A DNA stretch of 64,000 nucleotides from Eledone cirrhosa (Eukaryota). Below, piece after piece: positions 24,680 to 62,907 of this stretch. Each line of letters opens with the position of its first letter. Position 1 is the stretch's first letter. The position numbers and the translations under genes were made by a program. The notes under the pieces were generated by a model. The model saw only the letters and a list, made by a program, of their open reading frames with translations, searched no databases and was not told the DNA's origin. The stretch is taken from positions 281,542,001-281,606,000 of the forward strand of contig OZ024743.1 of the NCBI GenBank assembly GCA_964016885.1. The letters are read 5' to 3'.

Positions 24680-24825
24680 TCATCTCTTGCAAGACTTTGC
24701 CAATCTCCGCATCTGTTTCTCTACAATGGGTTTAAGTGGAAATATAACAACATTGTTGTCAAGACGAACGAGACCCTTTTCTTCGAATTTTTGTCCAGCT
24801 TTCATTCGCATTAATACCCGGCGCC
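24680..24825 (-). CDS. TEP/A2M-like last coding exon
   Basis: tttcag| (G)RRVLMRMKAGQKFEEKGLVRLDNNVVIFPLKPIVEKQMRRLAKSCKR* (TGA at 24682-24680). Confidence 0.85.
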
Positions 24826-26012
24826 CTGAAACAAAGACACAAAATTCAATATTTATAGGTTTGGGACTTTAACCCTATTTTTAGAAGATATTTAACTTTA
24901 TGAATATTATTGTTATATATAGTTATTAATACTATTTCTAAGAAAGCAAAGTAGTGGAAGTATTGAGTTGTGTTTCATGAAATACTCCTACACTTCATGT
25001 TTATCTTTGCTTAGTGGAAACAATTATAATTTATACCCATGCTAGCCTGGAAGATGGACGTTAAACGATGATGGTAGTGCTGAAAGTTGAGGATTTGTTT
25101 TTTAGCTGGTAGTTATTCATACAAATATTTACATTTGAAGTCCTATATATATTTTAGTACCAATACTGTAATATATTGCATTAGTGTGCATTCACAGTTA
25201 TGAAGGATTCAATATTGGGTTCAGTTAAATAAATAGAATTATTTTAATTAAGTTGAAGGGACAGTTCTAGATTAAGATTAACTGCAGCTTCATCATCATT
25301 ATTTTTATATCTGTTTTTCCATGCTGGCAAGGTTTGGACAAGACTTTTTTAAAGCTGTCTTCTATAGCTGGATACTCTTTCCGATGCCAATCCTTAGTTA
25401 TTTAAGTAAGGTACTGATCTTTGCATGACTGAATCGATGAACTGCGGAGAATACTATTTATGTGGGATATAAACAAACATTACCACCTGGCCATGACAAG
25501 TGATAGGTTTCCTTACAACTTCTGTGTACCAATTTTATTCACAAGGCCTTGGTCAGCCTGAGGTTATAGTAGAAAACACTTGAACATGAAATCATGTGGT
25601 TATGAAGCAAATATTTTAACCACAAAACTATGCCTACACCATAACCAGTTAAAAATTGCATAATTTTCATCAGGTGAACTTCAGTTAGTTATAATCTAAA
25701 ATTGTTTTTCCAATTTAATTCAAATCATCATGTCCATTTTCTATGCTGGCATGGGTTGAATGGGTTTCCATGTCTTCTCTCATATGTTCCATATATTGGT
25801 ATGGTTTCTGTGGCTGGCTACCCTTCCTCATGCTAGCCACTTCACAGAATGTACTGGGTGCATTCTATCATAGCACCAGCACTATCAATTTACAGAGTAT
25901 ACTGGGTGTATTTTATTGTGGCACCAGTATTAGAAAGGTTGCCAGCTACTTGACAAGACTAAAGGAACTTGACTAATTTATAGAATAAAAGTGAATACAG
26001 TGTCAGTCTTAC

Positions 26013-26156
26013 CTCTTCCCATTATGCAAGCACATTCACAGGATTTACTTAATTTGGGGACAATCAACATTTTAACTTGTAATTTTTTCACTGGTCGTAG
26101 ATCTGCCATAACTCGTATTAAATTTTCTTTGTTCTTTCCAGTAGATATTTTATAAA
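26013..26156 (-). CDS. TEP/A2M-like exon, NTR/C345C-like domain
   Basis: tccaag| (V)YKISTGKNKENLIRVMADLRPVKKLQVKMLIVPKLSKSCECACIMGR-G |gtaaga. Confidence 0.85.
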
Positions 26157-26533
26157 CTTGGAAAAATAAATATTGACAGTAATATACATAAAATTTTGAC
26201 AGTAATATGCATGAAGAGGTTTTCATAAGCAAGTTATATTTTTGATTATCTAAGCAACTGGTAGGCAGAAACTCCCTTTGGGGATTGTTTAAATTACAAG
26301 TAAGTGAGACAACTCTCACTAAAATCAATTGATTGAAAATTTTGGATTATATAGTCAATGCTTGTAAGAGTGGATATGTTTTGGATTTATTAGACCTTCT
26401 CAGCTGGCAAGACTAACAGTGATCACTATATTTAGATGATGGTCACTGGGTGAAGAAGTGCAAGATGTCAGTAGGAGGAGGACCAGCACTAACAAACCCC
26501 TTAGCCATGCCTCTCCCTCACTCATATATATAT

Positions 26534-28627
26534 AAAGGCTACTAAATGAGGAGAATAAATGGGAGAAAGACAGTCTCCCCCATATCGACCCAATAGAGGG
26601 ACCAGCAGTGTTAGTCGAGGGGAGTATAATAAGTAAGGCAAACAAGGATATGAAGACGGGTAAGGCGGCTGGGCCTTCGGAAATAGTTGCTGAGATGCTG
26701 AAGGCATCTGGCACGGTGGGACACACCATGGTCACCCGCATAGTTAACCAAGTCGTACAGAATGGGGTTGTTCCGAAGGACTGGCATAGCAGCATCATCG
26801 TTAACTGTTATAAGGGTAAAGGAGACGCCCTAGATAGGAGTAACTATAGAGGCATTAAATTAATCGACCAGGTCATGAAGGTCACGGAAAAAGTAATAGC
26901 GCAACTAATCAGAGAGAGAATTTACCTAGATGAAATGCAGTTCGGGTTTGTGTCAGGCAAAAGTACCACAGACGCTCTTTTCATTGTACGACAACTACAG
27001 GAGAAGTACCTAGCTAAAGGTAAACCCCTCTACTTAGCTTTTGTCGACTTGGAGAAAGCCTTCGACAGAGTCCCCCGCTCCATTATCTGGTGGGCTCTTA
27101 GAAAACTAGGCGTTGACGAATGGCTTGTGAGAGCTATACAAGCCATGTATAAAGAAACAGTCAGCAAGGTTAGAATTAACAACGAATATAGTGAAGAGTT
27201 TAGCGTAAAAGTTGGCGTCCATCAGGGCTCTGTTCTCAGCCCCCTACTATTATTGCCCTTCAGGCTATAACAGAGGAGTTCAAGACCGGCTGCCCATGGG
27301 AACTCCTATACGCAGACGACCTGACACTCATAGCGGAATCAATGGCCGAGCTAGAGAAGAAATTCCAAACATGGAAGCATGGCCTAGAATCAAAAGGACT
27401 TAAAATTAACCTGGCTAAGACTAAAGTTCTAGTTTGTAGGAAAGAAAATAAGGCGGCGGTCCCTTCTGGGAAATGGTCGTGCTCGGTGTGTAGGAAAGGC
27501 GTAGGTAGAAACTCCATTTTATGTCCTAAATGCAAAGTATGGGTGCATAAAATATGTAGTGGGATCACAGGTAAGCTAACTAAGAACATAGATTTTACAT
27601 GTGGCCGGTGCTCTGGTGCAATAAGTAGCAGCAAGTGCCCACAAAATACTAGCTCTTTCAATTGCGCAGAGGGTTCTATAGAAATAGTGGACAGTTTCCG
27701 TTACCTGGGTGATAAAATCAGCAGTGGGGGAGGGTGCTCTGAAAGTACAGTAGCTAGAGTCAGAACTGGTTGGAAAAAGTTCAGAGAGCTTATACCACTA
27801 TTAGCTGCTAAAGGGTTCTCCCTAAAAATGAAAGGCAGGTTGTACGATGCCTGCATACGAACAGCAATGTTGCATGGCAGTGAGACACGCAGACTAGAGA
27901 GGAACGAAGCTTGCATGCTCCGCTGGATGTGTAACAGTAATATATGTGAACGGCAAACCATAAACGAACTAAGGAAAAAATTAGAAATAAGAGGGATCAG
28001 ATGTTGTTTACTCGAGAGAAGGCTACGTTGGTATGGACACGTGATGCGCATGAAAGTCAATAGCTGTATAACAAAGTGCAGGGCAATAAAGATAGACGGT
28101 AGCCACGGAATAGGCAGACCTAGAAAAACCTGGGACGAGCTGATAAACTCCGACCTCACACACTTACACCTCTCCAAGACAATGTCACTGGACCGAGACC
28201 TTTGGCGGTACTCAGTAACAGAGAAGACCCGCCTTACCTAAATACATAGTAAAACCTACTACAGCCAGTAGGCATCTAACAAAATACCCACCACCCCCAA
28301 CCCATCCACGCCACCCCGTTCTATGTAAAGTTGTGTTGGTGCCACACCATCCAGGCCGAAACAAATGAGATCGTGTAGGTGTCACGACAAAAAAACACAC
28401 AGTCCACGCTGTAATGTGGCCGTGTAGGCAACACGGTAAAAACCTCCCAGCCCCACACTGTAAATGTGGTTGGTGTTAGGAAGGGCATCCAACTGTAGAA
28501 AACCTGCCAGACAGTCCTATGCGAGCAAGACAATCACTCTTGCCTCAAGTGGGACTACCCCCGTCCAAACCCATGCAAGCGTGGAACACGGACGTTAAAC
28601 GGTGATGATGATGATGATGATGATGAT
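26534..28627 (+). mobile_element. 5'-truncated RTE-clade LINE with PHD-like finger, (GAT)n tail
   Basis: KGKGDALDRSNYRGIKL, AFVDLEKAFDRV, GVHQGSVLSP, LLYADD, FRYLG, MLHGSET, RLRWYGHV; one frameshift near 27250; tail ggacgttaaacggt(gat)n. Confidence 0.95.
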
Positions 28628-28674
28628 ATATATCCTTAATAGATACAAAAAGAATTAATTTGTTTTTTACTTAC

Positions 28675-28741
28675 CTTCCTTTGCTTTGCAGAATAATTTG
28701 GGATAATCTTTTGGTATTTCATCCAAGCACATTGGACAAAT
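28675..28741 (-). CDS. TEP/A2M-like exon, start of NTR/C345C-like domain
   Basis: taacag| ICPMCLDEIPKDYPKLFCKAKE-V |gtaagt. Confidence 0.85.
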
Positions 28742-30515: not shown

Positions 30516-30805
30516 CTGTTTTTTATGATTCTTTGATACATCAAATGGAACACGTTCCTTATTTGTTTCAGCACTTACATTTGTACTGGAAACTGTGGCT
30601 ACTGGTATTGGTTCAACATACTCTGTGAGAAAACTAACACTGGTTGTTTTCAATGTGATGCTTATTTCAGCAACAGTTTTTCTACGTGGAGAAGTTGTAT
30701 TCAAGCTGCTATTACTACTACTAATAGCTGTATCAATGTTTCTGGTGGCATTTGATAGTAGAGCTGATTCACCACGTTGATTTTCTGGGACAGAGTTGGC
30801 TGTTT
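30516..30805 (-). CDS. TEP/A2M-like exon, Ser/Thr-rich low-complexity linker
   Basis: tttcag| (E)TANSVPENQRGESALLSNATRNIDTAISSSNSSLNTTSPRRKTVAEISITLKTTSVS...NHKKQ |gtaagt; open for 290 nt, phase 1 to 0. Confidence 0.8.
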
Positions 30806-32222: not shown

Positions 32223-32411
32223 CTGCTTCAGCATTCATATCATTTGAAGCTTTAGATTTTAGCTTCAACAACTTTTTCAACGCCTCTGGTAATTCAACAG
32301 GTTGTCTTTGTTGAGTCAGAGAGTTCTCATATTTCTCTTTAGAAACTTCAGGTAATTCTTCTTTAGTTCCACACGTTGTTTTTAATTTGTACAAGGAATG
32401 ACCAATCACAT
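32223..32411 (-). CDS. TEP/A2M-like exon, end of MG8 and start of linker
   Basis: tttcag| (D)VIGHSLYKLKTTCGTKEELPEVSKEKYENSLTQQRQPVELPEALKKLLKLKSKASNDMNAEA |gtatgt; phase 1 to 1. Confidence 0.85.
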
Positions 32412-34229: not shown

Positions 34230-35095
34230 ATCATCATCATCATCAACGTTTAATGTCCGTGTTCCACGCTTGCATGGGTTTGGACGGGGGTAGTCCCACT
34301 TGAGGCAAGAGTGATTGTCTTGCTCGCATAGGACTGTCTGGCAGGTTTTCTACAGTTGGATGCCCTTCCTAACACCAACCACATTTACAGTGTGGGTCTG
34401 GGAGGTTTTTACCGTGTTGCCTACACGGCCACATTACAGCGTGGACTGTGTGTTTTTTTGTCGTGACACCTACACGATCTCATTTGTTTCGGCCTGGATG
34501 GTGTGGCACCAACATAACTTTACATAGAACGGGGTGGTGTGGATGGGGTGGGGGTGGTGGTGGTGGGACGGGAGAGTATTTTGTTAGAGATGCCTACTGG
34601 CTGTAGTAGGTTTTACTATGTATTTAGGTAAGGCGGGTCTTCTCTGTTACTGAGTACCGCCAAAGGTCTCGGTCCAGTGACATTGTCTTGGAGAGGTGTA
34701 AGTGTGTGAGGTCGGAGTTTATCAGCTCGTCCCAGATTTTTCTAGGTCTGCCTATTCTGTGGCTACCGTCTATCTTTATTGCCCTGCACTTTGTTATACA
34801 GCTATCGACTTTCATGCGCATCACGTGTCCATACCAACGTAGCCTTCTCTCGAGTAAACAACATCTGATCCCTCTTATTTCTAATTTTTTCCTTAGTTCG
34901 TTTATGCTTTGCTGTTCACGTATATTACTGTTACACATCCAGCGGAGCATGCAAGCTTCGTTCCTCTCTAGTCTGCGTATATCCTCTGCACATAATGCCC
35001 AGGTCTCACTGCCATGCAACATTGCTGTTCGTATGCAGGCATCGTACAACCTACCTTTCATTTTTAGGGAGAACCCTTTAGCAGCTAATAGTGGT
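34230..35095 (-). mobile_element. 5'-truncated RTE LINE, same subfamily as 26534-28627, opposite orientation
   Basis: Near-identical 3' ORF end (...DRDLWRYSVTEKTRLT) and 3' UTR; (ATC)n tail at about 34230. Confidence 0.93.
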
Positions 35096-35117
35096 AAATC
35101 AGTGATAAATATATGTG

Positions 35118-35168
<51 letters not shown>

Positions 35169-36297
35169 TATACATCATCATCATCGTTTTTACGTCTGCT
35201 TTTCCATGGTTGCATGCATTGCTCTTCCATTGTATTTCAATGTATTCTTAGTTAATTTTTAATGGTTATCTTTTAAATGACACTTAAGTCCAGTTGCTGA
35301 TTTACACATGAAGCCACATTTAGTGCAGATGGCAGGATTTTGAGTGGAGCTGCATGGAAGGTTTAATCGAATCTTGGTGTTAGATCACGAAGATGGACCA
35401 GACAAGATTTTCCAAAGTTCTTTACTCCTTCATCGCAAACAGTTCTCCATTTTGTACAGTCAGTAGCTAGGGCTTCAAAAGAAGTAATAGGTATTTAAGA
35501 TTGTACTTCAGTTTATCCTTTATCTGAGTAATGGTCTGCTTACATTACGTGCACTATTATGAAGTTGACAGTATAACAGTATCTTGGATGTGCAGTTCTC
35601 AGTCATTCTTGGGACATGACGAGCTCATCTAAGTTGGGACTGCATCATAAATGACTCAATCTCACCAATGTTGCATCTTGTGAACAGATCGGCATTGGAG
35701 ACTGTCAGAAAGTGCATAACCACAGATAGAGTGAAGACAATGTTTGTGGAATAGATCATGCTTATAAATGTGGGTGCAATAAAGTGTCCATGACTCTGAG
35801 ATGTTTAAAAGTGTTGTCAGTATCACTGCATGATAGACTGCAATTTTTATTTTCAAGGATATACCTCTGACACCTCATAAACATTGATGTAGTTTGCCAA
35901 AGGTGTTCGTTACTTTGGAGATGCAACTAACAATCTCATTATCCAGGGATGGAGAGAGGTTCACCTTACTGTCAAACTAAGTAAATGAGTTCATACACTT
36001 TAGCTCCTTGCCATCAACAGTGATGGGTGTGGTTAGAAAAAGCTATCTCACTTACCGCTTTTCACAGGTGCTGCTAAATTCCACTGCAGGTACTCCTCTT
36101 CCACGTGCGTCCGACTGCTTAACACCGGGAGCTGCCCAAAACTCGCGTCCACACCGTATGCTGGTCACCACTAGAGAGAGGCCCTCTCCTGGCCCTTCCG
36201 GTCGAGCATCCTTCCGGTCAAAGACCCCTTCCGGTCGAGGACTCCCCCCCGCCTCCGGCCACCGCACGCCACACCATACCCACACGCCCCCCTGATC

Positions 36298-39060
36298 TCA
36301 AGGATCAATTTCCCCCTCGTCCCTCTGCATATGAAAGTCTGCCGTCCAGGTCGGCGGTCTACGACTTCGTTGCGATCTTCGTAGTATTGGGGCAGGGCTC
36401 TGGGTTTCCTCTTCCTCGGAGTCCGTCGATACAGTGATTCTTCTTACATCCAGGACATGACGTGGTACCCCGTCCACGGACACATTGTTCTTTGAATTTA
36501 CGGCCGTCACCGTTCCCCTTCCCCATTGAGATGTGCAACGTGCATCTGGGGGCTTAACCCAGACTTCTTCGCCCACCTGCACGAATGCACTCTCTCTCCC
36601 CACTGGCCGTTGTGGTGGCGTGCACGGGTGCTGCCACTCGTATTTGAATACTGCTCTATGTGGCACTGATTCCTCGACCTGTCCAACCTGAGGGGACATA
36701 TTGTACCAGAACACTGCCTCCATTGGTGAGATATGGCCCTGCTCCGCCATTGCCTTGATCGTCCGGTGGTGTCGCTCCACGATTCCATTCCCGCTCGGCC
36801 TGTGCGCCGCTCTGAAGAAACGGTCCACCTTCCATCCATCGAGCATCTCCCTCAGTGCCTCCGAGCGGAACGCTGCGCTGTTGTCCATCAGCAGTTCATC
36901 CACAGGGCCCCGCTCCAAGAACACCTCTCTCAACGTCCGCACGATTTCCTCGGCCGTTCCAGTCTTCATCTCCCTCCATATCGCCATTCGACCTGGTCCA
37001 CAGTCGACCATCGAGAGGTACGTTCCCTGCCGGTAGTGCGTCACATCCACCGCTAATCGCTTCCAGTCGCGATCCACCGGGAGGCTTCCCGTTTCGTGTA
37101 CACCCGGGGCGGGATCAATGGACTGACATCGGACAGCCTCTAACCCCCCCCCCCCGAACACTGTGTCTGCTAACGTCCGAGTCGATTCTCCTGGCTAGGA
37201 ACAGGCTCCTATCCACCCCCATGTGGTGCATGTCATGCAACCCCTTCAGGTCTAACTCGGTCAGCCGACACACGGCAGCTATCTCATCCTCTACCTCCTC
37301 CGGCGCTTCCATCCAGGCTTTCTTCACTCTAGTTAAATGTCCGCCCTATTTTTCTCTGAAGGCACGAACACTACGCTCAGCTTCAGGTCGAACTCGGTGG
37401 CCAGCTCTCCTAACGTTCCCAGGCGGCGCTTTATCAGCATCTCCGACGCGCCTCTCGTTCGCACTCTCTTCTCACTGGTGAGCACTGATCTTACCCATCC
37501 GAGTACGGTAGCCGAGTCGGTGCGAATCTCGATGGTGCGCAGCCCCCACCGCAGGGCAAGGTTCACCCCTCTCAACACCGCGTCCAGCTTGGCCACATTG
37601 ATGTGGCTGCAGTCGTCCTTCTTTCTAAGCCAGGCTGCATCCTCGACCTCAACACCTCTCTCCAACGTGACACCCAGCGCTATGCTGCTGGCATCGCACC
37701 ATACGGTCCCACTCTGCGATTTGGGAACATACCAGCGTCCTCGCACTGGGTCGTCGGCCTTCACCCTCCCCACGATCTCCTGCATCATGGCCACCGTTCT
37801 CTCTCCCACTCTGTCACTCCAAGTCACCCCTCCCGCTCATCTCTTGACATAGCTGCATGCCGTCCGGAGCCACCCAGCGATCGGGTAGTGACCCACCAGC
37901 TTTCCACACACCGAGAAAAGCTCCCGCCTATTCATACTTGGGCCCAGTTCCGGAACTTCGTTTCCCCTCTGGAACACCAAAACGCCCATCTTATCTCGCC
38001 GTAGCCTAAGTCCCAGCGCGGCTCCTCCCTCCAATGCTTCTGATGGCTTCGCAGTCAGTCCATACCTCCGCAAATGGCTCGTGACCTCCGCCGTCGACAC
38101 CACCGACTCGTCCACTAGGATGTCGTCAATGTAGGAGTTAGTAGCCCTCTTTATCTTGTCGGCCCTCCCCAGAGCGGTCTTGAGGACCGCCGCCATGATC
38201 TTCGGTGCGGAGCTCAGCCCGAAACCGAGCCTGGTCAGGCAATATGTCCGGCCCTTATACCTGACCAGCTGATACCGCCAGAGCTTCTCATCTATATGCA
38301 ACTGTAAGTAAGCCGACTTTAGATCCACGATCGCTGAACCCCCCGTCATGCGTCTCCACTCACGCAGGGTTTCCCCACAGACATCCGTGACCTCGCCACC
38401 CATGTGGCATGACACGTGCTCGTTCAGCTCTCGATAGTCCAGCACCGGCCTCACCTTGCTCTTCGTGGGTTGCACCACCGCCATCAACGGCAATACTCCG
38501 CACTTCACCTCCTCCTTCCAGGGAAGCAGTATGCCCTCTTCGATCCATCTCTCTACTTCTTGCTCGAACTCGCTCCTAGCGTTTCCCTTCAATGTGTGTT
38601 GATAGCAGCCCACTTTGGTCTTCAGTGTTGGTGGTTCTCCCTTCCAGTACCACTCAACAACCCATCGCTGCCCATCAAACACGGCCTTGAAGTCCTTGTC
38701 CTGTACAGTGTAAGCGGGGTAATCCTCCTCGTGGGCCTTCTGGTTCTCATGACGTGCACTCACAGCGCATACCGATGCAGCGGCGCCAAACGACACACCG
38801 ACATTGTTCACCATGACGCCCCCTAGACGGCCAATCGCGTCCATGCCCATAACCACGCCAATCCCATCCACCACACTGTCTACCACGATGGCGGAAAGCC
38901 TTATCGTCCTTCCCCGTACCGCTATTTCCATCTTGCTGCGACCTCGGCATTCAATTTTCCTGCCGTCGACTGCCCTTACGCTGCTCTTCCCTCCGCACCC
39001 CCGCAGTCACCAGTGTCGTCATACAGCCCGTATCCATGAGGGCTCGCTGTGGCTTCCCTC
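36298..39060 (-). pseudogene. pol of LTR element (protease, RT, RNase H, integrase), frameshifted
   Basis: Protease ALMDTG; RT KVRPVLDYRELN, DLKSAYLQ, RLGFGL, YIDDI; RNase H WCDAS, HINVAKLDA, RTDS, NRAD; integrase HHCC remnant, LAVDVT, MDNS, NGIVERHHRTIK; split over ORFs 37837-38931, 37333-37827, 37115-37327, 36298-37161. Confidence 0.93.
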
Positions 39061-39096
39061 TCACGAAGACTTCCACCACGGGCAGCGCCGCTACTC

Positions 39097-39838
39097 GTAA
39101 GGGGCAACTACCGGCGCAGTAGTTCCCCTTGGATCGTTTCCCTGGTCTCAGTTAGTAGCGATGTGGCCTGGTCGCTTACACCGGTAGCAAATTATCTCCG
39201 GCTTCGACTCTCTACAGTCTCTAGCCATATGCGGGCCGTGACACCCAAAACAGCGTCCCCTAAATTCGTGCCGAGGTTGCCTCCCTTTGACCATTTCGCT
39301 GCCAGGTGTCCTGAGCCTCCGTAGTCGCTATCGCCGCGACACTCTTTTTGGCATCTTCTGCTATGATCCGGGCTTGTTCCACCAGTGAACGCATTTCCAT
39401 CTCCTTGTACCCCGGGACTTGCTGCAGTTTCACCGCTATGTCGTCCGGAAATCCATTGATGAATGCCAACCGCACCGTGCATTCACATTCCGCCTAGTAA
39501 CTGGCCAACATAGCCAACCGCCTTATTTCCGCTGCGAAAATGTCGACGCGCTCACCATTCCACCTGATTCTTGCCAGCTTAGCAAAAGCCGCCAACGGTC
39601 CCTCGGTGAATGCATCCATCAGTCGCCTCTCAATCTTCTGCACATCTCTTTGGCTGTGCTCGTCCAACTCAAGGAAGAGTACCAATGCGTCGCCCTCGAG
39701 GTACAATGCAATGAGACCGGCCATGTCTTCTATCTTCTGCAAGCCTGCGACCAGCCGAACCTTCCGCAGCCAAGCGACAACATCACCTTCCCCGGTGAAT
39801 GGCCTGATAGCTTCGTTCATCCGTAGTCTTGTTGCCAT
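39097..39838 (-). pseudogene. gag of LTR element with two zinc knuckles
   Basis: MATRLRMNEAIRPFTGEGDVVAWL...; knuckles CFGCHGPHMARDC and CYRCKRPGHIATN* (last Cys mutated to TGA); internal stop at 39494; GGGAAAC slippery site at 39136-39142. Confidence 0.85.
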
Positions 39839-40756
39839 CTTCTGATTTGTTTTGCGGCAAGTGTTTTTTTTTTTTTTTTTTTTTTTTCCAGTCGCCGAAA
39901 TAGCTTGTGGTTAGAAAAAGCTATCTCACTTACCGCTTTTCACAGGCGCTGCTAAATTCCACTGCAGGTACTCCTCTTCCGCGTGCGTCCGACTGCTTAA
40001 CACCGGGAGCTGCCCAAAACTCGCGTCCACACCGTATGCTGGTCACCACTAGAGAGAGGCCCTCTCCTGGCCCTTCCGGTCGAGCATTCTTCCGGTCAAA
40101 GACCCCTTCCGGTCGAGCACTCAAAAACCCCTTCCGGTCGAGCACCTCCCCCCCCCCCCCCCCCCGCCACCGCACGCCACACCATACCCACAATGGGAAC
40201 ATGGGAATGGCCATGCTCCGGCTGTCCTTGCCCAACATGATTGAAGTACCACCTAAGTCGTCTTAATGCTGATTGTTAAATGCTCTCATAGACAAACAAG
40301 AAGCAGTTCATCAATTCTCCTGCTTCTTCAAGGGATGTTGCAATAAGTGCAGCAGCATCAGCAAACAGTATATCATGAATAACACTTGTTTATTGAAGTG
40401 TTTTAGCTTTAAAGTGCTGATGGAGGAAGAGCCCACCTGATGTACGAAATTCAAATCTGACACGTGTGTCTGAGTTGCTAAATGTATGCAGAGAAGAACA
40501 AAGCAAAGAGAATAGGAGCCATGACACAACCCTGCTTCATACCGTTTGTGACACCAAAGGGTCCAGAGCATTTACCATTTGACTTAATTGATGCTCATAT
40601 GCTCCCATGAAAAGACATGATGTCATTCAGCATATTGTCATATGTTTGCCAAGCTTTTTTCCATATATATATGACACTAATACTCATACATTTCACTTTG
40701 CATTCCAAAATCGTTACCAAGACTACCTAATGCTTTATCTTGTTTACTCTCATTAT

Positions 40757-41763: not shown

Positions 41764-41803
41764 ATATGTATATATATATACATACATACATACACAGAAG
41801 TAT

Positions 41804-41870
<67 letters not shown>

Positions 41871-42483: not shown

Positions 42484-42517
<34 letters not shown>

Positions 42518-43598: not shown

Positions 43599-43698
43599 CT
43601 CTGTCATAATAATCATAGACAACCACTCCTGCTGGAAGACTGTTCAATGCCAACACCTGTTCAATCTTAATTTCAATGCATTTTGCTGTCTTATTCAT
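43599..43698 (-). CDS. TEP/A2M-like exon, MG8 domain
   Basis: gttaag| MNKTAKCIEIKIEQVLALNSLPAGVVVYDYYDR-D |gtcagt; PAxVxVYDYY motif. Confidence 0.94.
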
Positions 43699-45284: not shown

Positions 45285-45359
45285 TTCATCAAAATATAAA
45301 TATACAAAGTCTTCTGTCATTTCATACTTTTTAACACCAATACTTTCTGAATGTTTTGG
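45285..45359 (-). CDS. TEP/A2M-like exon, MG8 domain
   Basis: tttcag| PKHSESIGVKKYEMTEDFVYLYFDE |gtaagt. Confidence 0.92.
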
Positions 45360-47315: not shown

Positions 47316-47400
47316 ATTAACAATTTGCTGCGGGATCCAACCTGTCAGCATTTTCACTTCCATAATAACAATATTTGTCTTTTGCCTCCTACCAGTGTAA
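47316..47400 (-). CDS. TEP/A2M-like exon, receptor-binding (MG8) domain
   Basis: taatag| YTGRRQKTNIVIMEVKMLTGWIPQQIVN |gtgagt; equivalent to SNMAIxEVKMLSGF. Confidence 0.92.
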
Positions 47401-47796: not shown

Positions 47797-47912
47797 CGGC
47801 TGCAGATGTGTAGTCTCCTTTCAGCACAGTTATTGTAAGAATTCTTTACTGAGATACGTAGATGGAAGCTCTGTTCTTGTTTTAGGTTCTGAACATTGTA
47901 TGTCAAAGAAGT
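47797..47912 (-). CDS. TEP/A2M-like exon
   Basis: tttaag| TSLTYNVQNLKQEQSFHLRISVKNSYNNCAERRLHICSR |gttagt, ends phase 2. Confidence 0.9.
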
Positions 47913-48872: not shown

Positions 48873-49091
48873 CTGAATGATACCACAACCCCTGCCTTCA
48901 GCATCAATCCGAATTTTGTTCTTAAATGGCTTTGAATAGGTGAACAGTTCAAACTGGTTGTCATCAGTGATTTGGAATGTCTCTGCTGAATCAAATTCGT
49001 TGTCAATGAAAATGGTCATATCAGTAGCTTCCTGTCGTGATGACCACATTAAAGTGTATTGGGAAATAGCTTGAAATGCTATCACAGAATC
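48873..49091 (-). CDS. TEP/A2M-like exon, end of TED / CUB segment
   Basis: tttcag| DSVIAFQAISQY...KIRIDAEGRGCGIIQ |gtaaag; equivalent to DTVVALQAL...GxGC. Confidence 0.94.
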
Positions 49092-51204: not shown

Positions 51205-51209
51205 GATAA

Positions 51210-51260
<51 letters not shown>
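51205..51260. repeat. (AT)n microsatellite
   Basis: Perfect dinucleotide run. Confidence 0.98.
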
Positions 51261-51263
<3 letters not shown>

Positions 51264-51816: not shown

Positions 51817-53356
51817 CATCATCATCATCATCACCGTTTTACGTCCGTTCTTCCACGCTAGCATGGGTTAGACGGGTTGTCCTGTTGTGGGCAGTGTCTG
51901 GTCGGCTGACCATGCCTTGCTCATACAGGAACTGATCTGGCTTGATTTCTACAGCTGGATGCCCTTCCTAACACCAACCTCATTTACAGTGAGTGCTGGG
52001 TGCTTTTTCGTGGCGCCTACACGTCCACTTTACAGTGTGGGCTGGGTGCTTTTTTGCCGTGGCACCTCCACGACCACCTTGCGGTGGGGGGGGGGGCATA
52101 TTGTTTATATGCTTCAGCATGTACCCATGGGAGGTCGGGTACCCTGTATTACTGCGTGACGCCAGAAGTCACGGTCGTGTGTCATTGACTTTGAGAGGTG
52201 TAGTTGGGTAAGGTCGGCTTTTATCACCTCATCCCAAGTCATCTTGGGTCTCCCCACTCCGCGGTTTCCATCAACTTCTAGTGCTCTGCACCTTTTTATG
52301 CAGCTGTCATCCTTCATACGCATCACATGTCCATACCAGCGTAACCGCCTCTCCTGCACGCAGCATTTGATTCCTCTTATGCTCAGTCTCTCTCTCAATT
52401 CATTTATGCTTTGTCGTTCACGTATATTACTGTTACACATCCATCGGAGCATGCAGGCTTCGTTTCTCTCTAATCTACGTAAGTCTTCCACCTTCAGCGC
52501 CCAGGTCTCACTACCATGCAACATCGCTGTTCGGATACACGCATCATACAGTCTGCCTTTCATTCTGAGGGAGAAGCCTTTTGCAGCTAGCAGTGGTAGT
52601 AGTTCCCTAAACTTCTTCCATCCCGTTCTTACCCTAGTTATTGTACTTTCTGAGCACCCACCTCCGTTGCTAATTCGGTCACCTAGGTAGCAGAAGCTGT
52701 CTACTGTTTCTACAGGGCCCTCCCAGAGATTGGTGGTACTTGTTTCCTGTGGCTGTTTGCTTGCTGTTTCAGCACAGCTGCTGCATGTGAATCCTACATT
52801 CTTAATTAAGCTTCCTGAGATCCCGCTACATCTCTTGTGTACCCATTGTTTGCATTTGGGGCAAAGAATGGAGTTCCTACCTACACCTTTCCTACATACT
52901 GAGCAAGGCCATTTCCCTGAGGGGATCTGGGTTCTGTTTTCTCGTCTACTTATAAGGACCTTAGTCTTTGTCATGTTGACTTTGAGGCCCTTTCTCTCTA
53001 GTCCCTGCTTCCAGGTTTGGAATTTATTCTCTAGTTCTACCATAGATTCAGCTATGAGTGCGAGGTCATCAGCATACAGGAGTTCCCATGGGCATCCGGT
53101 CTTAAACTCCTCCGTTATTGCCTGCAGGACTATGATGAACAGGAGAGGGCTAAGAACAGAGCCCTGGTGGACCCCAACCTGTACGCTAAATTCCTCGCTA
53201 TACTCATTGCCAATCCTAACTTTGCTGACTGCTCCCCTATACATGGCTTGTACCGCTTTCACAAGCCATTCATCTACTCCTAGTTTTCTAAGAGCTCACC
53301 AGATTACTGCACGTGGAACTCTGTCAAAGGCTTTCTCAAGGTCGACAAATGCCATA
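51817..53356 (-). mobile_element. 5'-truncated RTE LINE inserted in a piggyBac-type MITE
   Basis: ORF 52114-53262 (GVHQGSVLSP, LLYADD, PHD-like Cys cluster); TSD TACTCT at 51811-51816 and 53357-53362. Confidence 0.95.
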
Positions 53357-53747: not shown

Positions 53748-53935
53748 CTTTGCAGCCATAAATCCTCGCATAGGTTTCCGTTGTTTGGTAAGCCACTTGA
53801 TTATTGGTTTCAGATCTTGCCATTGACTAGTTGCTTCTGTTCCCAAGAGGGAAAGCAGAGCATAAGATGTTGCTTCTATATCCATGGAAGTCACAGAAGA
53901 TGATCCTTCTGAATTCAACCAAAATGTTTCTTCCC
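53748..53935 (-). CDS. TEP/A2M-like exon, TED domain
   Basis: tgacag| (G)EETFWLNSEGSSSVTSMDIEATSYALLSLLGTEATSQWQDLKPIIKWLTKQRKPMRGFMAAK |gttttt; IEATSYALL and WLxxQR motifs. Confidence 0.94.
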
Positions 53936-55850: not shown

Positions 55851-56556
55851 TCTTTTCTGGTGGTTAGGGTGTAGGTCTCCCCATCTTAAATACCTGATGA
55901 GGCAGCATATTGTCTTCTTGAGCTAGACACATAATTTCTCATTGCTCCAGTTCACTCAGCTGAAAATGAGTACAATCAGCAGCAGCAACAGCAGGTAGGG
56001 GTTAACCTTGTGATAGAATGGCATCAAGGGGGAGTCTCTTGTACTCTCAATCACTTAACTTCACATGAAACCAAAATAAGCTCCAGCCTGATGAGTTTTT
56101 AGGCTCAAGAAAGACCTTTTTTTAAAACTTATTAAATATAGTACTATGTTCATTTCATATGATTTTTCTTTTATTCTTTTATTGGGTTTAGTTATTTGAC
56201 TGTGGCCATACTGGGGCACTACCTTGAAGGGATTTAGTTGATCATACTAACCCCAGTATTTATGTTTTCCAAGTCTGCGACATATTTTATCAATTTCATT
56301 TTTTTTTGTTGAACCCCTATGTTATGAGACATAAATGAACAGTACATGTAAACAAATTACACATATACATACATTATAGACTGACAGACACATACATATA
56401 TATATATATATATATATTCAAATTCATATATATATATTCATATATACACATGTTTGTGAGGTAAACTCCTTAACCACATGGCTAGTTGAAAAACAATTTT
56501 TGAAGAGCAAAAAAAAAATATATATAAAGTAAATATTTAAAAAAATGAATTATTAC

Positions 56557-56716
56557 CTGAAACTGTGGACCTCCTCTCGAGGTCATTCTGATATTTTTCT
56601 TTTTCCTTTTCATCATGGCTATACAGAGTAAAGACATAGGAATAGAGTGATAGCATGTATATGTCTTCATAGTCATGGGATCGGAGACAATCAAGCCCTT
56701 TATCAATGATCTGGTC
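56557..56716 (-). CDS. TEP/A2M-like exon, TED domain
   Basis: ttgtag| DQIIDKGLDCLRSHDYEDIYMLSLYSYVFTLYSHDEKEKEKYQNDLERRSTVS-G |gtaata; phases fit neighbours. Confidence 0.9.
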
Positions 56717-59222
56717 CTACAATTTAATGAGGAATTACAAATATTACAATTGAAATTTTTCAAAAATAAATCTGTCTTTCCTCTAAATTAACTAACATAT
56801 AAAAAGATATCTGTTAACCCTTTTGTTACTATATTTCTAATGAAATACACTGTTTTTGAATTAGTTATTGAAGCATTTGGAGAACTCTATCTGAATAGTG
56901 CCCCCATGTCAGCTATTGTTCATCTAAGAAGGATGCGTTTTGTTACAGGGCAAAAAAACGAGTGTCAACCATGTTCTTTTATGGAAGCCTGTGCACGGTC
57001 ATAGCAGTAGAGGTTGTCCTGCAACAATGCATCTGGATATGCTATGTGCTGACATGGGAGGAAATTTAACGGATCTTGAAGTGATAATACTAGATCGAGA
57101 CCAATGGAAAGAGTACTGTTCATTTGATCAAGGGAATTTGACTTGTGAGCGAGAGATTGAAGAATTTGGAAGGATTAACTAAAATTAAGGATTTTATTAT
57201 TAAAATGGTTTTTGTAACCTAACTGAAAAAAAAGTAAAATTATGTTGGAAAGTTTTAATTTAAATAGCAGTCGTTTAAAATGGGTGGTTTTATTTCATAG
57301 AACCAGAGGTGGTCTTGGATGGGTTGGTATCAAAAGGGTTAAGTCTAAAAACAATGTTAGACAACTGAACTTAGTTGCAATGTGTCTTGTCATCTCTGAT
57401 TGGCCAGATTATGACATGTAGTTAGCCAATCATGGAGAACAAAACATGGCTTGTAATGCTGGTATATCTTTGTCATCATCAATTGTTATGTTTATCATCA
57501 TCATCATTATTACCTAGTGGCTACAACTTGTAACTGCATTGTCCTGATGATTACGTGTTTATAAGCAGTCATGGGATCATTTTTCCATCAGGATCTTGGA
57601 AGGATGCATATGTTCATTCTTCCATGGATAGATTTTTAGATAAAGACATGATATACTGGGCAACCTACAAGTATTTAGGCCACAGTAGTCTTTCTTTGTT
57701 GCATTCTTTGAAATGTTGTTTTCCATCAAAACATCTTATCAAATAAAAAGTTCTAATAGAGTGGATAATGCTGATTAGAGGACACTCACTAGATATTGGT
57801 CTTAGTTTCTTCCCATCTATATGATGCTGAATATCCATGATTCTCGTTGGGAAAAAAGTGACGGAGGTAGGTTCTGAATTCTCACCCGACTATTACTCAG
57901 AAGTTTGCTAGCAAACTGCAGCTCATCTACCTTCATCACAAGGATGAAGCTATTGGTCACTTGAAACATTATCACTGAGGTGACTAAAGAGTCTCATCTA
58001 CAGTTTTGAAATTAGAATGATTCTTCTCCTAGAGAGATGGCTAACTAGAGCTAATGAGCTCTGTCTCACTTTTTTTTTTTAACACACTATTGGATGGCTG
58101 TTGATTCTCCTGAATCCCTCTGCCTTTTGACAAATTTTGTTTTTCAGCCTGCAGCATGTCCAAAAAGACGCCTCCCTCACCAAGGAAGCTTGGTGGAATT
58201 GTCAGTTTAGTTGCCAATGACCCAACCATATGCCAGGCTGTATTGAGTAACATGTTACTACTAGTGCTTGAGAACAACCTGACAATATAGATATACTCAG
58301 GTTTAATGGTCTAGAACAGTTACATGGCCCAAGTGGACCACTAGTCATCCGTATCAAAGTTTTGGGGTCAACTGTAAGTTAAATGTCCTGTGTTACATAA
58401 TGTAATTAAAATAAATTTGTAACTGTTTTCCCTCATGAAATTTGTAGACCATCTTTTGGAAAAGGTTGGATAGTACTGGTCTAGAAGACTATACCAATAG
58501 TTACTGACTAACCCATTACTCTTATTTCCTTCCTCAACAAGTTATAAGCAACATATCTAAAACACTTATATTCAGTAAACATTCTCATGAAGTAGACTAT
58601 GTACATGTTGGTGTCAATGATTTAGTAATTACTATCTGATTACTAAACCCATTAGTAAAATGAACTAATGGGTTTTGTAATCAGAGAGTGATTAGTAAAT
58701 ATGGTTGTTCAACCTGCTATAAATAGAAGCCAATTCTCCCTCAAATCATGTCCTATCATCTTGTAAAAAGAAGGAAACAATGGATAAAATAGGTCTCTAT
58801 GCATTTTACCTGAAAAACAAAAGACAGAATGGAATGTTGATAACTGAAGTGTCTTTAAACAGATTTGCTGAATAAAAGCTGACCTAGGTTAAATAATTTC
58901 AACAAGGTGATTATAAAATGTCAATAATAATGATTATATGCTGTTAATAAATGAAATACAGATGGAAGCCATTTATACAAATTAACTCTTAACATCCTGT
59001 AATGATTAAGCACAAAAAATCCGAAAAAAATTGATTTGTTAATGCAAAGGGTTATAATATCTTTACTAATGGGCAGATTATTATTAGAGTAAAGACTTAA
59101 CATTTTTTTAATGTGATGCAGTCATAGTGCTATTCTGTACTTTTCAAAAATGCCTTGCTAATGCGGTTTCATGTGGTACAGGATTTTAGAAGTTAATGAA
59201 ATGAAGAATGAATAAAACGTAC

Positions 59223-59542
59223 ATATTGGGGTGTTCCAAATTCTAATAATGCCATAATCACAAATGCAGTACTAATTCTTTCCAGATTTTTCCTATCTTC
59301 ATAAAGTCCAAATGTCAATGAATAATTCCGTTTGTCATAAAAGCAGCCATTTTGGAGTTGTTGATGTCTTAGCCAGGATATGGATTTCTGCAGTTGCACC
59401 TCATCGATATAAATGTAAGATCGAGCTTTTACCAAAACTCTCAGGACAAATGCAGTCAACAGTTCACTACCGTCTTTGTCTTGTGAACCAAATATACTAA
59501 AAGAACCATCATCATGAATGTAATTCATTTGTTGTTGATAAC
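59223..59542 (-). CDS. TEP/A2M-like exon, TED (alpha-alpha barrel) domain
   Basis: aacag| (C)YQQQMNYIHDDGSFSIFGSQDKDGSELLTAFVLRVLVKARSYIYIDEVQLQKSISWLRHQQLQNGCF...STAFVIMALLEFGTPQY |gtacgt. Confidence 0.95.
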
Positions 59543-59926
59543 CTGTTAATGAAATTGAAAAAAAAAAAAAGCAGCTAATGAGCCAACAATTATCTTCAAA
59601 CATTATTCTTCTATTTGTTTCTGTCATTAGAATGTGCCAATGCTGGGGCACTGACTTAAAGGGCCTTAGTCAATTATATAGCAAACCTTTTTTTAAATAC
59701 TTTTTTCAAATCTGGTACTTATTTATCGAATATCTTTGTTGAACTGTTAAGTTATGTGACACAAACACCATACATATATCATCAACATCCTTTTAAGTCT
59801 GCTTTTCCATGCTAGCATGGGTCCTTTTCAGCACAGAATCTCTCGCCTCTTCATGATCCTTTGTCATCTCTACTGTGAGCTTCAGCGATTTAAGATCAAA
59901 TCTCTTAACTTGTGCCCATCTGTATG

Positions 59927-59957
<31 letters not shown>

Positions 59958-59969
59958 TATATACATACA

Positions 59970-60378
59970 CACTGCTAACTACAAAAGGTTTTCCCCTCTA
60001 AATGAAGAGCAGAATGTATGATGTGTGTATACGAACAGCAATGTTACTTGGTAGTGAGGCCTGGACGCTGTGTGCAGGGGACTTGTGAAGATTGGAAAAA
60101 AATGAAACTTGCATACTCCAATGGATGTATAATAGTAATATACATGAATAACAAAGCATAAATGAACTGAGAAAGAAACTGGGTATAAAAGGGATCAGAT
60201 GTAGTGTGCAGGAGATGAGAATGCATTGGTATGGATATGTGATACATATGAAGAAAGACAGCTGTATAAAAAGGTGCAGGGCACTCAAAGTTGATGGAAG
60301 CTATGGTGTAGGAAGACCTAGGAAGACTTAGGATGAGGTGATAAAAGCTGACTGGACGTTAAATGGTGATGATGATGA
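59970..60378 (+). mobile_element. Degraded RTE LINE fragment
   Basis: KGFPL.MKSRMYDVCIRTAMLLGSEAW remnant ending in a ggacgttaaatggt(gat)n tail. Confidence 0.85.
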
Positions 60379-60389
60379 TACATATATAT

Positions 60390-61866
60390 CATCCTCATTT
60401 TACGTCCGCCTTTCCCTGCTTGCAGGGGTGGGACGGTCCTATTCAGCACAGCATCTCTCCACTTGTCACGGTCCTTCGTCATCTCCTCCGTGAGCTTCAG
60501 CGATCTGAGGTCTGCTCTCACCACCTCCGCCCATGTTTTTGGTGGTCTTCTACTGCGTCTTCCTTCTACTGGCATTTCTTGGCACTTCTTTACCCAGCGG
60601 TCATTCTCCATGCACATCACATGTCCATACCATCACAGTCTTCTCTCCCACACACAATTTATCCCTCTTAAACACAGTTTCTCTCTCAACACATCCATGC
60701 TCGGTCATTCACGTACATTGACATTGCACATCCAATGGAGCATGCTTGCTTCATTTCTCTCCAGCCGTCGCATATCCTCTGCAGTTGCTGCCCATGTCTC
60801 ACTACCATGCAGCATCGCGCACCTCACACAGGCATCATATAACCGGCCTTTTGTATGCAGGGAGAAACCCTTCTTCGTCAGCAGAGGAAGCAGCTCCCTA
60901 AACTTCTTCCAACCCGTCCTTGTTTTAGATACTATGGCCTCGGAACACCCCGCTCCCATGCTAATCTGATCACCTCGGTACCGGAAGTTATCACCCACTT
61001 CTATAGAACTTACCTGCATTTGAAAAATGTGTCTATCAATGCCACTTCTACTGTCAAATTTCCCTGTACATCTACTGCATACGTATTTTTCCCTACCTGT
61101 TAGTTTGCCTGCTATCCCACTACATCTCTTGTGTACCCAAGATCTACATTGTATACATTTTATAGAATTTATGCCAGTTCCTTTTCTTCCTTTTCTGCAT
61201 ATCGAAGATGGTCATTTCCCTGATGGAATCAGAGTTTTGTCCTCTTTTCTACTTATCAACACTTTTGGCTTAGCTAGGTTCACTCTCAGTCCTCTTAATT
61301 CCAACTGCTGTTTCCATAGCCAGAATTTATTCTCTAGCTCCTCTACTGATTCTGCTATAAGAACCAGATCATCAGCATAGAGAAGTTCCCATGGGCAGCC
61401 AGTCTTAAACTCCTCTGTTATGGCTTGGAGGACTATAACGAACAAGAGCAGGCTGAGGACCGAACCCTGATGTACTCTTACTTGTATCTGGAATTCCTCA
61501 CTAAACTCCATTCCTATCCTCACTTTACTGACAGCACCTCTGTACAAAGCTTGCACCATCCTCACAAGCCATTCCTCAACACCTAGTTTACTTAGGGACC
61601 ACCAGATCAGGGTACCCTATCAAAGGCCTTCTCTAGGTCAACAATAGATAAGTATAGTGGCTTATTCTTCTCTAAGAACCTCTTGTAGTTGTCTCACTAA
61701 GAAGAGGGCATCTGTTGTACTTTTTCCAGGCACAAAACTAAACTGCATCTCATCTGGTCTGACCCTTTCTCTAATTAGTTGTGCTAATATTCTTTCTGCC
61801 ACTTTCATAACCTGATCCATCAGTTTTATGCCCCTATAATTGCTCCTCTCCAGAGCATCAACATTA
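60390..61866 (-). mobile_element. Degraded RTE LINE, different subfamily
   Basis: SNYRGIKLMDQVMK, LLYADDLVL, RTGWKKFRELLPLL, MLHGSETW fragments with frameshifts. Confidence 0.9.
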
Positions 61867-62730
61867 CCTATATATATCAGTATCAACATCATCTTTGTTT
61901 AACATCCAGTTTTCCATGCAAGCATGTGTTGGACGAGTTGTCAGATGACCATGTGTTGCTCATACAGAACTGTTTCTAGCTTGGTTTATATATATATATA
62001 ACTTAATACTTTCATTACCTTATTTCTACTGAAAAATGGTGGTAGTAATTTTTAACCCTATATTTTGAAAATAACCTATAATTTGCAGGCATTTAGTAAT
62101 ATAATTCACCTTCTCATTATTAAGCCTGCGTTTGGAAAATAAAATTACGGTGGAAGGTTTTTAGTCAAATATAAATACTTTACAACAAACAGTTTTGTAA
62201 CATAGAACCAGGAAGTTGGTATTGAAAGGTTTAAATAAGCAAAAATTTGGAAAGATTTAGTAATATAACTAACATTCTCATTAATAAACTGGTATTTGGG
62301 ACATTACTTAACCCTTTCATTACCATATTTCTAATGAAAGAGACTGCCTATGAATTTTGAATCATTTTGAATTTAATCTAGATTTTTGAGGGATATAGCA
62401 ATATAACTTTCTTATTATTCAGTTTGTATTTAGTTCAAATTCCGTTGAGGTTAGCTTTGCCTTTTATTCTTATAGGGTCAATAAAATAAAGTACCATAAA
62501 TGCTCTGGGGTCGATTTAATAAACTTTCCTCTTTCCACAAATTGTTGGCCTTGTGCCTTTGAAGCACAACTTATCAAAGGTTCTTACATAAAAATATGAT
62601 GGAATGTTTTGCAGATAAATACCATATAAGCATTTTAAAACAGTTTGATATCAAAAGAGTTAAAATGTCAACACAAGTGAACTGTCACCATAACTATAAT
62701 GGGAAGAAAGAAATTAAATTCTGATCATAC

Positions 62731-62907
62731 ATTTTTCCATTATCTCTGTTGCTTTCATTTCAATTTCATAAGAAACTTTCCCAACAGCATTCAAGTAATC
62801 CATGACATAAATAGTAGCAGCCAGGCTCAAGATGTTTCCTTCTCCATTTGTGATAGGATCATTTACTATATTTTCTAGATATGATAAACCAGGCCATAAC
62901 ATGTTGC
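62731..62907 (-). CDS. A2M/TEP-superfamily gene, exon covering the degenerate thioester site; earlier exons lie beyond the window
   Basis: ttttag| GNMLWPGLSYLENIVNDPITNGEGNILSLAATIYVMDYLNAVGKVSYEIEMKATEIMEK |gtatga; aligns to GDxLGxxLxNLxxLxxxPxGCGEQNMxxFAPNIYVLxYL of TEPs. Confidence 0.9.

What the first reader, a model, noticed from the sequence alone, without database searches (positions are those of the whole stretch)
24680..62907. Thioester-less TEP with A2M-like body, mucin-like linker and C345C/NTR-like tail
Seen: 14 in-frame exons with no stops, so the gene looks intact. The GCGEQ site reads TNGEG, losing both the Cys and the Gln. After MG8 come about 150 aa of charged and Ser/Thr-rich linker with several NxS/T sequons, then a basic domain with the pattern CPMC..LFC..VYK..SCEC..GRRVL..LDNNVVIFP..C. 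Known: that Cys/strand pattern is typical of NTR/C345C modules, which among TEPs are considered a hallmark of complement C3/C4/C5, whereas A2M, iTEP and CD109 lack them. Inference: a hybrid-architecture, non-covalently acting TEP, possibly a molluscan immune or matrix protein class that lost the thioester independently of C5 and MCR.
Basis: partly seen in the sequence, partly recalled or inferred. Interest (0 to 1): 0.75.

Follow-up and report, generated by a model that had tools for sequence, protein, structure and literature searches.

The report
Thioester-less cephalopod macroglobulin with netrin-fold tail
This octopus-type gene encodes an alpha-2-macroglobulin that has lost its reactive thioester and likely binds targets non-covalently, while its predicted netrin-fold tail, usually cited as a complement C3 hallmark, also ends many ordinary invertebrate macroglobulins.

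Summary
Observation confirmed: 14 in-frame exons with AG/GT splice sites encode 757 aa. GCGEQ reads TNGEG, followed later by a 146-aa linker and a basic six-Cys tail that is predicted to fold as NTR/C345C (pLDDT 88.5; Z 8.9 to C3/C5).

The 'hybrid' reading fails. The same tail ends 65 of 120 listed A2M relatives, all with an intact thioester: molluscs, annelids, nemerteans, insects, amphioxus and a hemichordate; 0 of 38 vertebrate and 0 of 5 cnidarian rows. A thioester-intact A2M 121 kb upstream has the same tail and intron phases. The body nests in molluscan A2M; grouping with C3 is rejected (AU p=0.007).

What is special is a cephalopod paralogue (Octopus, Argonauta, two unnamed transcript clusters) with no thioester and a conserved acidic bait region (49-60% identity versus 8-11% in the canonical copy). 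It is most likely a non-covalent, narrow-target trap tethered to glycans; this is untested.

UniProt auto-labels already say 'NTR domain', a wasp paper noted the Cys-rich extension, and this scan saw the tail on other DNA. Ten literature searches found no paper naming it NTR in A2M. One upstream exon is missing from the assembly, in an interval with a gap.

The parts
62731..62907 (-). Exon 1 of 14 in window: start of the TED domain
   Evidence: Pfam TED_complement on orthologue
62837..62851 (-). Degenerate thioester site TNGEG (Cys and Gln lost), in PITNGEGN
   Evidence: sequence; same in all four orthologue clusters
59223..59542 (-). TED exon, 320 nt; unbroken as in the neighbouring A2M, split in three in this genome's C3 and TEP genes; the segment that holds the catalytic Ser/His/Asn in relatives is diverged
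56557..56716 (-). TED exon
53748..53935 (-). TED exon
48873..49091 (-). End of TED, second half of CUB
47797..47912 (-). CUB end / MG8 start
47316..47400 (-). MG8 (receptor-binding domain) exon
45285..45359 (-). MG8 exon
43599..43698 (-). MG8 exon
32223..32411 (-). End of MG8 (TTCGTKEELP, shared with bivalve and gastropod A2Ms) and charged first part of the linker
30516..30805 (-). Ser/Thr-rich linker exon with 4 N-glycosylation sequons
28675..28741 (-). NTR tail exon 1 (CPMC..LFC), 67 nt, phase 0 to 1, same size as in the neighbouring A2M
26013..26156 (-). NTR tail exon 2 (VYK..CEC), phase 1 to 1
24680..24825 (-). NTR tail exon 3 to stop codon (GRRVL..LDNNVVIFP..C)

Best explanation
A cephalopod alpha-2-macroglobulin paralogue that lacks the thioester and keeps a predicted NTR-fold tail found on many invertebrate A2Ms; it likely acts as a non-covalent, narrow-target protease trap that is likely tethered to sulfated glycans by that basic tail. 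Shown: A2M domain set, lost Cys/Gln, position beside a thioester-intact A2M with the same tail and intron phases, placement in molluscan A2M. Inferred steps: (1) secretion (hydrophobic N-terminus) and furin-type cut at RxKR in the LNK loop; (2) origin by local duplication, with the tail inherited and not gained; (3) a specific protease cuts the conserved acidic bait and triggers the A2M shape change, since the plug Phe and the MG2-MG3 linker are kept; (4) the target is held sterically, which would need a dimer or larger oligomer; (5) the basic NTR on a glycosylated spacer anchors the protein to matrix, mucus or cell-surface glycans. I put the identity and origin of the tail at about 0.9 and the trap-plus-tether mechanism at about 0.45.
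For: Body: Pfam MG2/3/4, A2M_BRD, A2M, TED, A2M_recep and no ANATO hit. 474 bits to A2ML1 against 174 to C3. Tail-free tree puts the clade in molluscan A2M (96/97*) and bilaterian A2M (100/100*); AU rejects a clade with C3, p=0.0072. Neighbour: GCGEQ intact, same strand, 121 kb upstream, tail exons 67/141 nt against 67/144 nt, phases 0/1/1; 16 of its 22 resolved introns match. Tail fold: pLDDT 88.5; top structural matches are C3/C5/C4 C345C (Z 8.1-8.9, rmsd 3.2-3.6, 109-114 aligned) and PCOLCE1 NTR (Z 7.0). RxKR is present in 4 of 4 orthologues and in both canonical cephalopod A2Ms examined. Bait: 47-48 aa, net charge -8 to -11, 49-60% identical between the octopod and the distant pair, against 8-11% for the canonical pair whose TED identity is similar. 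Literature (passages or abstract): hen ovostatin lost the thioester Cys and still inhibits proteases (PMC7016707); the shape change does not need a thioester (PMC9352918); an octopus A2M is a dimer (PMC9156758); PCPE-1 NTR acts through heparin or heparan sulfate (PMC2871463 abstract).
Against: No functional, expression or oligomer data. Monomeric A2Ms need the thioester to inhibit (PMC9156758). The Arg of the plug motif is Leu in 4 of 4 orthologues, and the LNK helix that floors the trigger channel is changed from SV[HL]LL/IL to STF[PS]GW, so the trigger may be altered. A conserved bait is not what a protease decoy usually shows and fits a fixed binding site equally well. The ML tree does not join the clade with the cephalopod canonical A2M (that grouping is only not rejected: p=0.155; p=0.311). 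The shorter TED-MG8 alignment did not reject a C3 grouping (p=0.255). The C3 rows were partial exon strings and the stem is long (1.7-2.2). A basic tail is general to the family (52 of 60 tails net positive), so it says nothing specific about this paralogue. One exon is missing from the assembly.
Confidence: 0.5

Rival explanations
1. A non-inhibitory scaffold or carrier. The protein has given up protease trapping, and the conserved MG ring and former bait form a fixed binding surface for a receptor, growth factor or matrix partner, as thioester-less MCR or C5 do.
For: MG1-4 is more conserved in the thioester-less pair (64-67%) than in the canonical pair (41-43%), as are the bait (49-60 vs 8-11%) and the post-MG8 segment (45-53 vs 14-21%). 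The channel-floor helix and plug Arg are changed. A long stem followed by slow change suggests a new fixed function.
Against: The plug Phe, the MG2-MG3 linker (KYVLP[KR]F.V) and the bait length are kept. AF2 gives the bait low confidence: a helix at pLDDT about 50, the rest under 50, so no docked structure is predicted.
Confidence: 0.35
2. A degenerate complement C3/C5-like protein that lost the anaphylatoxin domain and the thioester, like Biomphalaria C3-1 and C3-3.
For: The best structural matches of the tail are C345C domains. Such degenerate C3s exist in snails (PMC7016707 passages). The short-alignment AU test did not reject it.
Against: The full-body AU test rejects it (p=0.0072). A tail profile built without the four thioester-less rows scores the window tail 93 bits, the neighbour A2M tail 73, a netrin-like exon 17 and this genome's C3 C345C region 11.5. 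The genome has its own C3 and a C3-like gene elsewhere, and the C3 gene's tail introns differ.
Confidence: 0.03
3. The NTR tail is released by proteolysis and acts as a TIMP-like metalloprotease inhibitor that replaces the thioester.
For: The fold family is shared with N-TIMP (Z 4.6-5.4), and basic residues lie just before the first Cys.
Against: The tail starts CxxC at the far C-terminus, not with the free N-terminal Cys-X-Cys of TIMPs (motif recalled). PCPE-1 NTR does not inhibit metzincins (PMC2871463 abstract). The tail also occurs with an intact thioester.
Confidence: 0.05
4. The gene is a pseudogene in this species (exon loss causing a frameshift).
For: An exon that runs from phase 2 to phase 0 in the neighbour gene is not found in the assembly.
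Against: A 200-N gap lies in that 43-kb interval. The 14 window exons are open and 82% identical to the orthologue, and the terminal branch is short (0.04-0.06).
Confidence: 0.04

Closest known systems
Invertebrate bilaterian alpha-2-macroglobulins with a six-Cys tail (Biomphalaria BgA2M UFX77148, Cristaria A2M, Haliotis, Argopecten, Capitella, Ischnura, Branchiostoma; the neighbouring octopod A2M)
   Same: Domain order MG1-7, bait, CUB, TED, MG8, linker, NTR-fold tail; in the cephalopod pair also the LNK furin-type site and the tail intron phases.
   Different: Those keep GCGEQ and a variable bait. This one has TNGEG, a conserved acidic bait, Leu for the plug Arg and a longer linker (95-146 aa against a median of 48).
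Hen ovostatin (ovomacroglobulin)
   Same: An A2M-family protein that lost the thioester Cys yet inhibits proteases (PMC7016707 passage, citing primary papers that I did not read).
   Different: A vertebrate protein and a separate loss; none of 38 vertebrate rows has the tail.
Complement C3/C4/C5 and their C345C domain
   Same: C-terminal NTR-type fold (Z 8.1-8.9); C5 also lacks a thioester (PMC9156758).
   Different: No anaphylatoxin domain, a long linker instead of a short anchor, an A2M body by score and tree, 9-14% tail identity and different tail introns.
Hymenopteran A2M 'cysteine-rich C-terminal extension' (PMC5691223)
   Same: Likely the same module: an A2M fragment from the wasp Odynerus carries the tail (P0043).
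   Different: That paper did not assign a fold and called the function hard to predict; those A2Ms keep the thioester.
MCR (macroglobulin complement-related)
   Same: Thioester mutated.
   Different: MCR has LDLa in the bait position and transmembrane helices (PMC7016707). Pfam finds no LDLa here, and the C-terminus is the soluble NTR tail.

Membership tests
Alpha-2-macroglobulin subfamily | MG domains, bait-region domain, CUB, TED and MG8 in order | tested here: met
   Pfam on orthologues; AF2 model of the MG ring, pLDDT 79.9
Alpha-2-macroglobulin subfamily | Falls in the A2M clade of the TEP tree | tested here: met
   AU against C3 p=0.0072 on the full body (p=0.255 on TED-MG8 only)
Alpha-2-macroglobulin subfamily | Bait region between the LNK Cys and the FPETW motif, with no ANA or LDLa | tested here: met
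   47-48 aa, no Cys; motif reads YF[SP]E[TP]W or YFPAPW
Canonical thioester A2M inhibitor | GCGEQ thioester | tested here: not met
   TNGEG in the window and in all four orthologue clusters
Canonical thioester A2M inhibitor | Hypervariable, broadly cleavable bait | tested here: not met
   49-60% identity against 8-11% in the canonical pair; 1-2 basic residues
Canonical thioester A2M inhibitor | Protease trapping after bait cleavage; oligomeric state | not testable with these tools
   needs purified protein
Complement C3/C4/C5 | C-terminal NTR/C345C-type fold | tested here: met
   (predicted model of the O. vulgaris orthologue tail)
Complement C3/C4/C5 | Anaphylatoxin domain | tested here: not met
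   no ANATO hit at E up to 5; no Cys in that segment
Complement C3/C4/C5 | Clusters with C3 | tested here: not met
NTR module (Pfam PF01759) | Reaches the Pfam NTR cut-off | tested here: inconclusive
   2 of 4 cephalopod tails hit weakly (best E 0.017); 9 of 23 family tails hit (best 3.5e-5); the amphioxus A2M P0133 carries a precomputed PF01759
NTR module (Pfam PF01759) | Six conserved Cys, barrel-type fold with terminal helices | tested here: met
   6 invariant Cys in 23 of 23 rows; fold matches
MCR | LDLa module and C-terminal transmembrane helix | tested here: not met
   no LDLa in Pfam; the C-terminus is basic and folds as NTR
iTEP/CD109 | Clusters with iTEP/CD109 | tested here: not met
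   separate clade

The most novel reading that the evidence does not exclude
The NTR/C345C fold is not a complement invention. It capped the ancestral bilaterian A2M (perhaps the common ancestor of C3 and A2M) and was lost in vertebrates and some other lines. In cephalopods a duplicate of that protein dropped the thioester and turned its bait into a fixed, conserved binding site: a C5-like non-covalent platform evolved independently from the A2M branch.
Probability: 0.3. Interest if true: 0.7.

Novelty: new variant of a known kind. Interest (0 to 1): 0.5.

Why it matters
Papers class TEPs as complement or A2M by the presence of ANA and C345C (PMC7016707; PMC9156758 calls C345C unique to C3b). 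An NTR-fold tail on A2Ms from molluscs to amphioxus weakens that criterion and can mislabel A2Ms as C3: P0104 is deposited as 'complement C3-like' but groups with A2M. It also reopens the question of when TEPs gained the domain. The cephalopod paralogue is a natural thioester knockout, lying next to its intact relative, with an unusually conserved bait. That makes it a direct test of what an A2M does without covalent chemistry.

Tried and rejected
RNA check: no RNA holder listed. Runs X1 and X2 covered introns like DNA and gave no exon joins, so splicing in this species is untested.

Sequence-level searches of the tail against the PDB found no NTR relative. Foldseek had no hit at E up to 0.001 (best 3.9e-3). 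The ESM Atlas gave NTR clusters at 0.90-0.92, a lead only.

A word search with the P0003 tail found only P0003 and P0004; HMMER on representatives was needed.

The TED-MG8 trees could not reject a C3 grouping. The Pseudopotamilla row had an abnormal branch (32% filled) and was re-cut.

The AF2 model gave no confident structure for the bait.

A first candidate exon at 47666-47578 was dropped for lack of splice sites and homology. The first join of the neighbour tail was off by one base (fixed).

An accession search in the paper library found 0 papers. No complex prediction was run. No supplements were read; alignment supplements of PMC7016707 (Figure S3) and PMC5691223 (Figure S5) may show the tail.
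Full report
Observation. The window holds the last 14 exons of a minus-strand gene. Each has an AG acceptor, the 13 internal donors are GT, and the splice gives 757 aa ending in one stop. The thioester site reads PITNGEGN. After MG8 come 146 aa (24% Ser+Thr, 4 sequons) and a 118-aa tail with pI 10.0. The product is 82% identical to proteins of Octopus vulgaris, O. sinensis and O. bimaculoides, 76% to Argonauta, and 49-50% to two unnamed clusters, P0003 and P0004. The genome is therefore an octopod by inference. P0003 and P0004 lie as complete 1785-aa ORFs on 5.4-5.9 kb contigs, which leaves no room for introns, so body and tail are one transcript in those relatives. For the window's own species no RNA run was listed.

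Whole gene. Mapping P0001 on fetched stretches puts the start at window-relative 257903, with a hydrophobic N-terminus, and finds about 23 upstream exons. One exon (orthologue aa about 817-892) is not in the fetched region or elsewhere in G000; only the neighbour's copy was hit. A 200-N gap lies in that 43-kb interval. An assembly gap is the likely cause, but it is not shown.

The tail is predicted to be an NTR fold. Pfam barely sees it (2 of 4 cephalopod tails, best E 0.017). An alignment of 23 related tails has six invariant Cys in the pattern CPxC..C..CxC..C. AlphaFold2 on that alignment gave pLDDT 88.5 and pTM 0.82 for the O. vulgaris tail. Foldseek ranked PCOLCE1 NTR, C4 and C5 first (E 0.004-0.005, probability 0.98-1.0). 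The wide structural search ranked C3/C5/C4 C345C at Z 8.1-8.9 (rmsd 3.2-3.6, 109-114 residues), then PCOLCE1 NTR 7.0, a hookworm protein 7.0 and Sizzled 5.9; unrelated rows start at 5.7. UniProt's automatic name for the O. bimaculoides orthologue is already 'NTR domain-containing protein'.

The tail is not special to this gene. A profile search of 1.84 billion representatives returned 23 proteins. They include thioester-intact A2Ms of Haliotis, Batillaria, Argopecten and Ischnura, A2M fragments of Gryllus, Odynerus and Watersipora, and Kunitz, carboxylesterase and LRR proteins of Lineus and Owenia. A search with the scallop A2M found 4020 proteins and listed 120. Of these, 65 carry the tail at E below 0.001, and all 65 have GC[GA]EQ; reversed controls reached at best E 0.024. 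By my hand labelling of the names: 0 of 38 vertebrate rows, 0 of 5 cnidarian rows and 65 of 77 other rows, including Branchiostoma, Ptychodera, Capitella, Arenicola, Lineus, a chiton and Biomphalaria BgA2M. The list is biased towards tail-bearing proteins because the query included the tail. Limulus, Amphiura and two Ptychodera rows lack it.

The neighbour. A second A2M lies on the same strand, ending 121 kb upstream of this gene's start, with MPYGCGEQN intact. It carries the same tail in three exons, with a first exon of identical size (67 nt) and the same phases 0/1/1. Of its 22 resolved introns, 16 match in phase and position among the 30 resolved in this gene; many TEP introns may be family-wide, so this count alone is not diagnostic. 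The 320-nt TED exon is unbroken in both genes but split in three in the genome's C3, C3-like and TEP/CD109-type genes. A tail profile built without the four thioester-less rows scores the window tail 93 bits, the neighbour 73, a netrin-like exon 17 and the C3 C345C region 11.5. The tail therefore predates the thioester loss.

Phylogeny. TED-MG8 trees put the thioester-less clade (100/100*) inside A2M (99/98* with 55 rows; 97/93* with 32 rows), but the AU test there did not reject a C3 grouping (p=0.255). With the whole body and no tail (25 rows, 1478 columns; C3 rows partial), the clade nests in molluscan A2M (96/97*) and the C3 grouping is rejected (p=0.0072). Sisterhood with the cephalopod canonical A2M is neither recovered nor rejected (p=0.155). 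A local duplication is thus inferred from synteny and exon structure, and its age is open. Among the long stored proteins with a [YF]F[PS][EA][TP][WF] motif, only this clade lacks GC[GA]EQ.

What is peculiar to the paralogue. I compared octopod with distant orthologues, against the same kind of pair for the canonical A2M: TED 56-59% vs 60-62%; MG1-4 64-67% vs 41-43%; bait 49-60% vs 8-11%; post-MG8 segment 45-53% vs 14-21%; tail 43-45% vs 26-30%. The species behind the distant sequences are unknown, so equal depth is assumed from the TED figures. The bait is acidic (net -8 to -11, 1-2 Lys/Arg), whereas ten canonical baits are near neutral. In the plug-in-channel trigger described in PMC9352918 (passages), the Phe matters and the Arg is dispensable. 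Here the Phe and the MG2-MG3 linker are kept, the Arg is Leu, and the LNK helix reads STF[PS]GW. AF2 models the MG ring well but the bait only at low confidence.

Mechanism. Best guess (about 0.45): a secreted, furin-processed A2M that a specific protease cuts in the conserved bait and that then holds its target sterically, as hen ovostatin does without the thioester Cys (PMC7016707 passage). It would need to be oligomeric, since monomers depend on the thioester; an octopus A2M is cited as a dimer (PMC9156758 passages). The basic tail on a glycosylated spacer would tether it to sulfated glycans, by analogy with PCPE-1 (PMC2871463, abstract). The main rival (0.35) is a non-inhibitory scaffold or carrier. 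All functional steps are inferred.

Literature. Ten searches found no paper that names an NTR domain in A2M or describes this paralogue. The library lacks most subscription papers. I saw passages of PMC7016707, PMC9363628, PMC11312191, PMC12939704, PMC5691223, PMC8712716, PMC9334734, PMC6071037, PMC3349304, PMC4361686, PMC9156758 and PMC9352918, and the abstract of PMC2871463; no supplements. PMC7016707 classes TEPs by ANA and C345C and reports C345C only for BgC3, although BgA2M isoform C scores E 2.7e-24 on the tail profile. PMC5691223 notes a Cys-rich C-terminal extension in wasp, ant and bee A2M, of unknown function, citing Sekiguchi and Nonaka 2012, which I did not read. A subscription paper on lophotrochozoan complement (recalled, not seen) may discuss it.

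Verdict. The feature is real and the fold call is right, but the hybrid reading is wrong. It is a new variant of A2M. The wider point, that an NTR-fold tail is common on invertebrate A2Ms, is visible in automatic annotation but was not stated in the papers I could search. Interest 0.5.

Noticed in passing
G000:C4 about 281,921,000-282,076,000 (window-relative 379110-534163), minus strand: Thioester-intact A2M with the same NTR tail, 121 kb upstream of the finding's gene; orthologue of P0147/P0149/P0140.
   Followed up: yes
L002, window-relative 81853-82052: 200-N assembly gap in the interval where one MG6-MG7 exon of the gene should lie; the exon was not found in G000.
   Followed up: partly
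P0032, P0035, P0044 (Lineus, Owenia): The same six-Cys NTR module ends a multi-Kunitz 'papilin-like' protein, a carboxylesterase and an LRR protein; it behaves as a mobile module, if those gene models are right.
   Followed up: no
P0104 (AVP12670): Deposited as 'complement C3-like' (Pseudopotamilla) but groups with A2M and carries the A2M-type tail; likely mislabelled because of the tail.
   Followed up: partly
G000:C5:48.19-48.24 Mb (L048, L049): Second C3-like gene whose thioester reads GSGEQ (Cys to Ser), another thioester loss in this genome.
   Followed up: partly
G000:C1:441.6 Mb and 441.98 Mb (L041-L044): Two near-identical TEP/CD109-type copies about 360 kb apart; recent duplication or assembly duplicate.
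   Followed up: no
window 411-11462, plus strand: Exons of an inorganic pyrophosphatase gene (Pfam hit on 1845-2084).
   Followed up: partly
window 36028-40122: GC-rich LTR retrotransposon-like insert in the 43599-32411 intron: 217-nt direct repeats 98% alike, integrase frame 36301-37194 on the minus strand.
   Followed up: partly
window 16560-17189, 34627-35247, 52117-53295, 60300-61900: Fragments of a LINE with reverse transcriptase and a PHD-like finger (Pfam on 52117-53295).
   Followed up: no
P0001 aa about 545-575; P0003, P0004 same region: Polybasic insert in MG5 of the thioester-less clade (long Lys/Arg runs in P0003 and P0004), predicted disordered; a possible second glycan-binding or processing site.
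   Followed up: no
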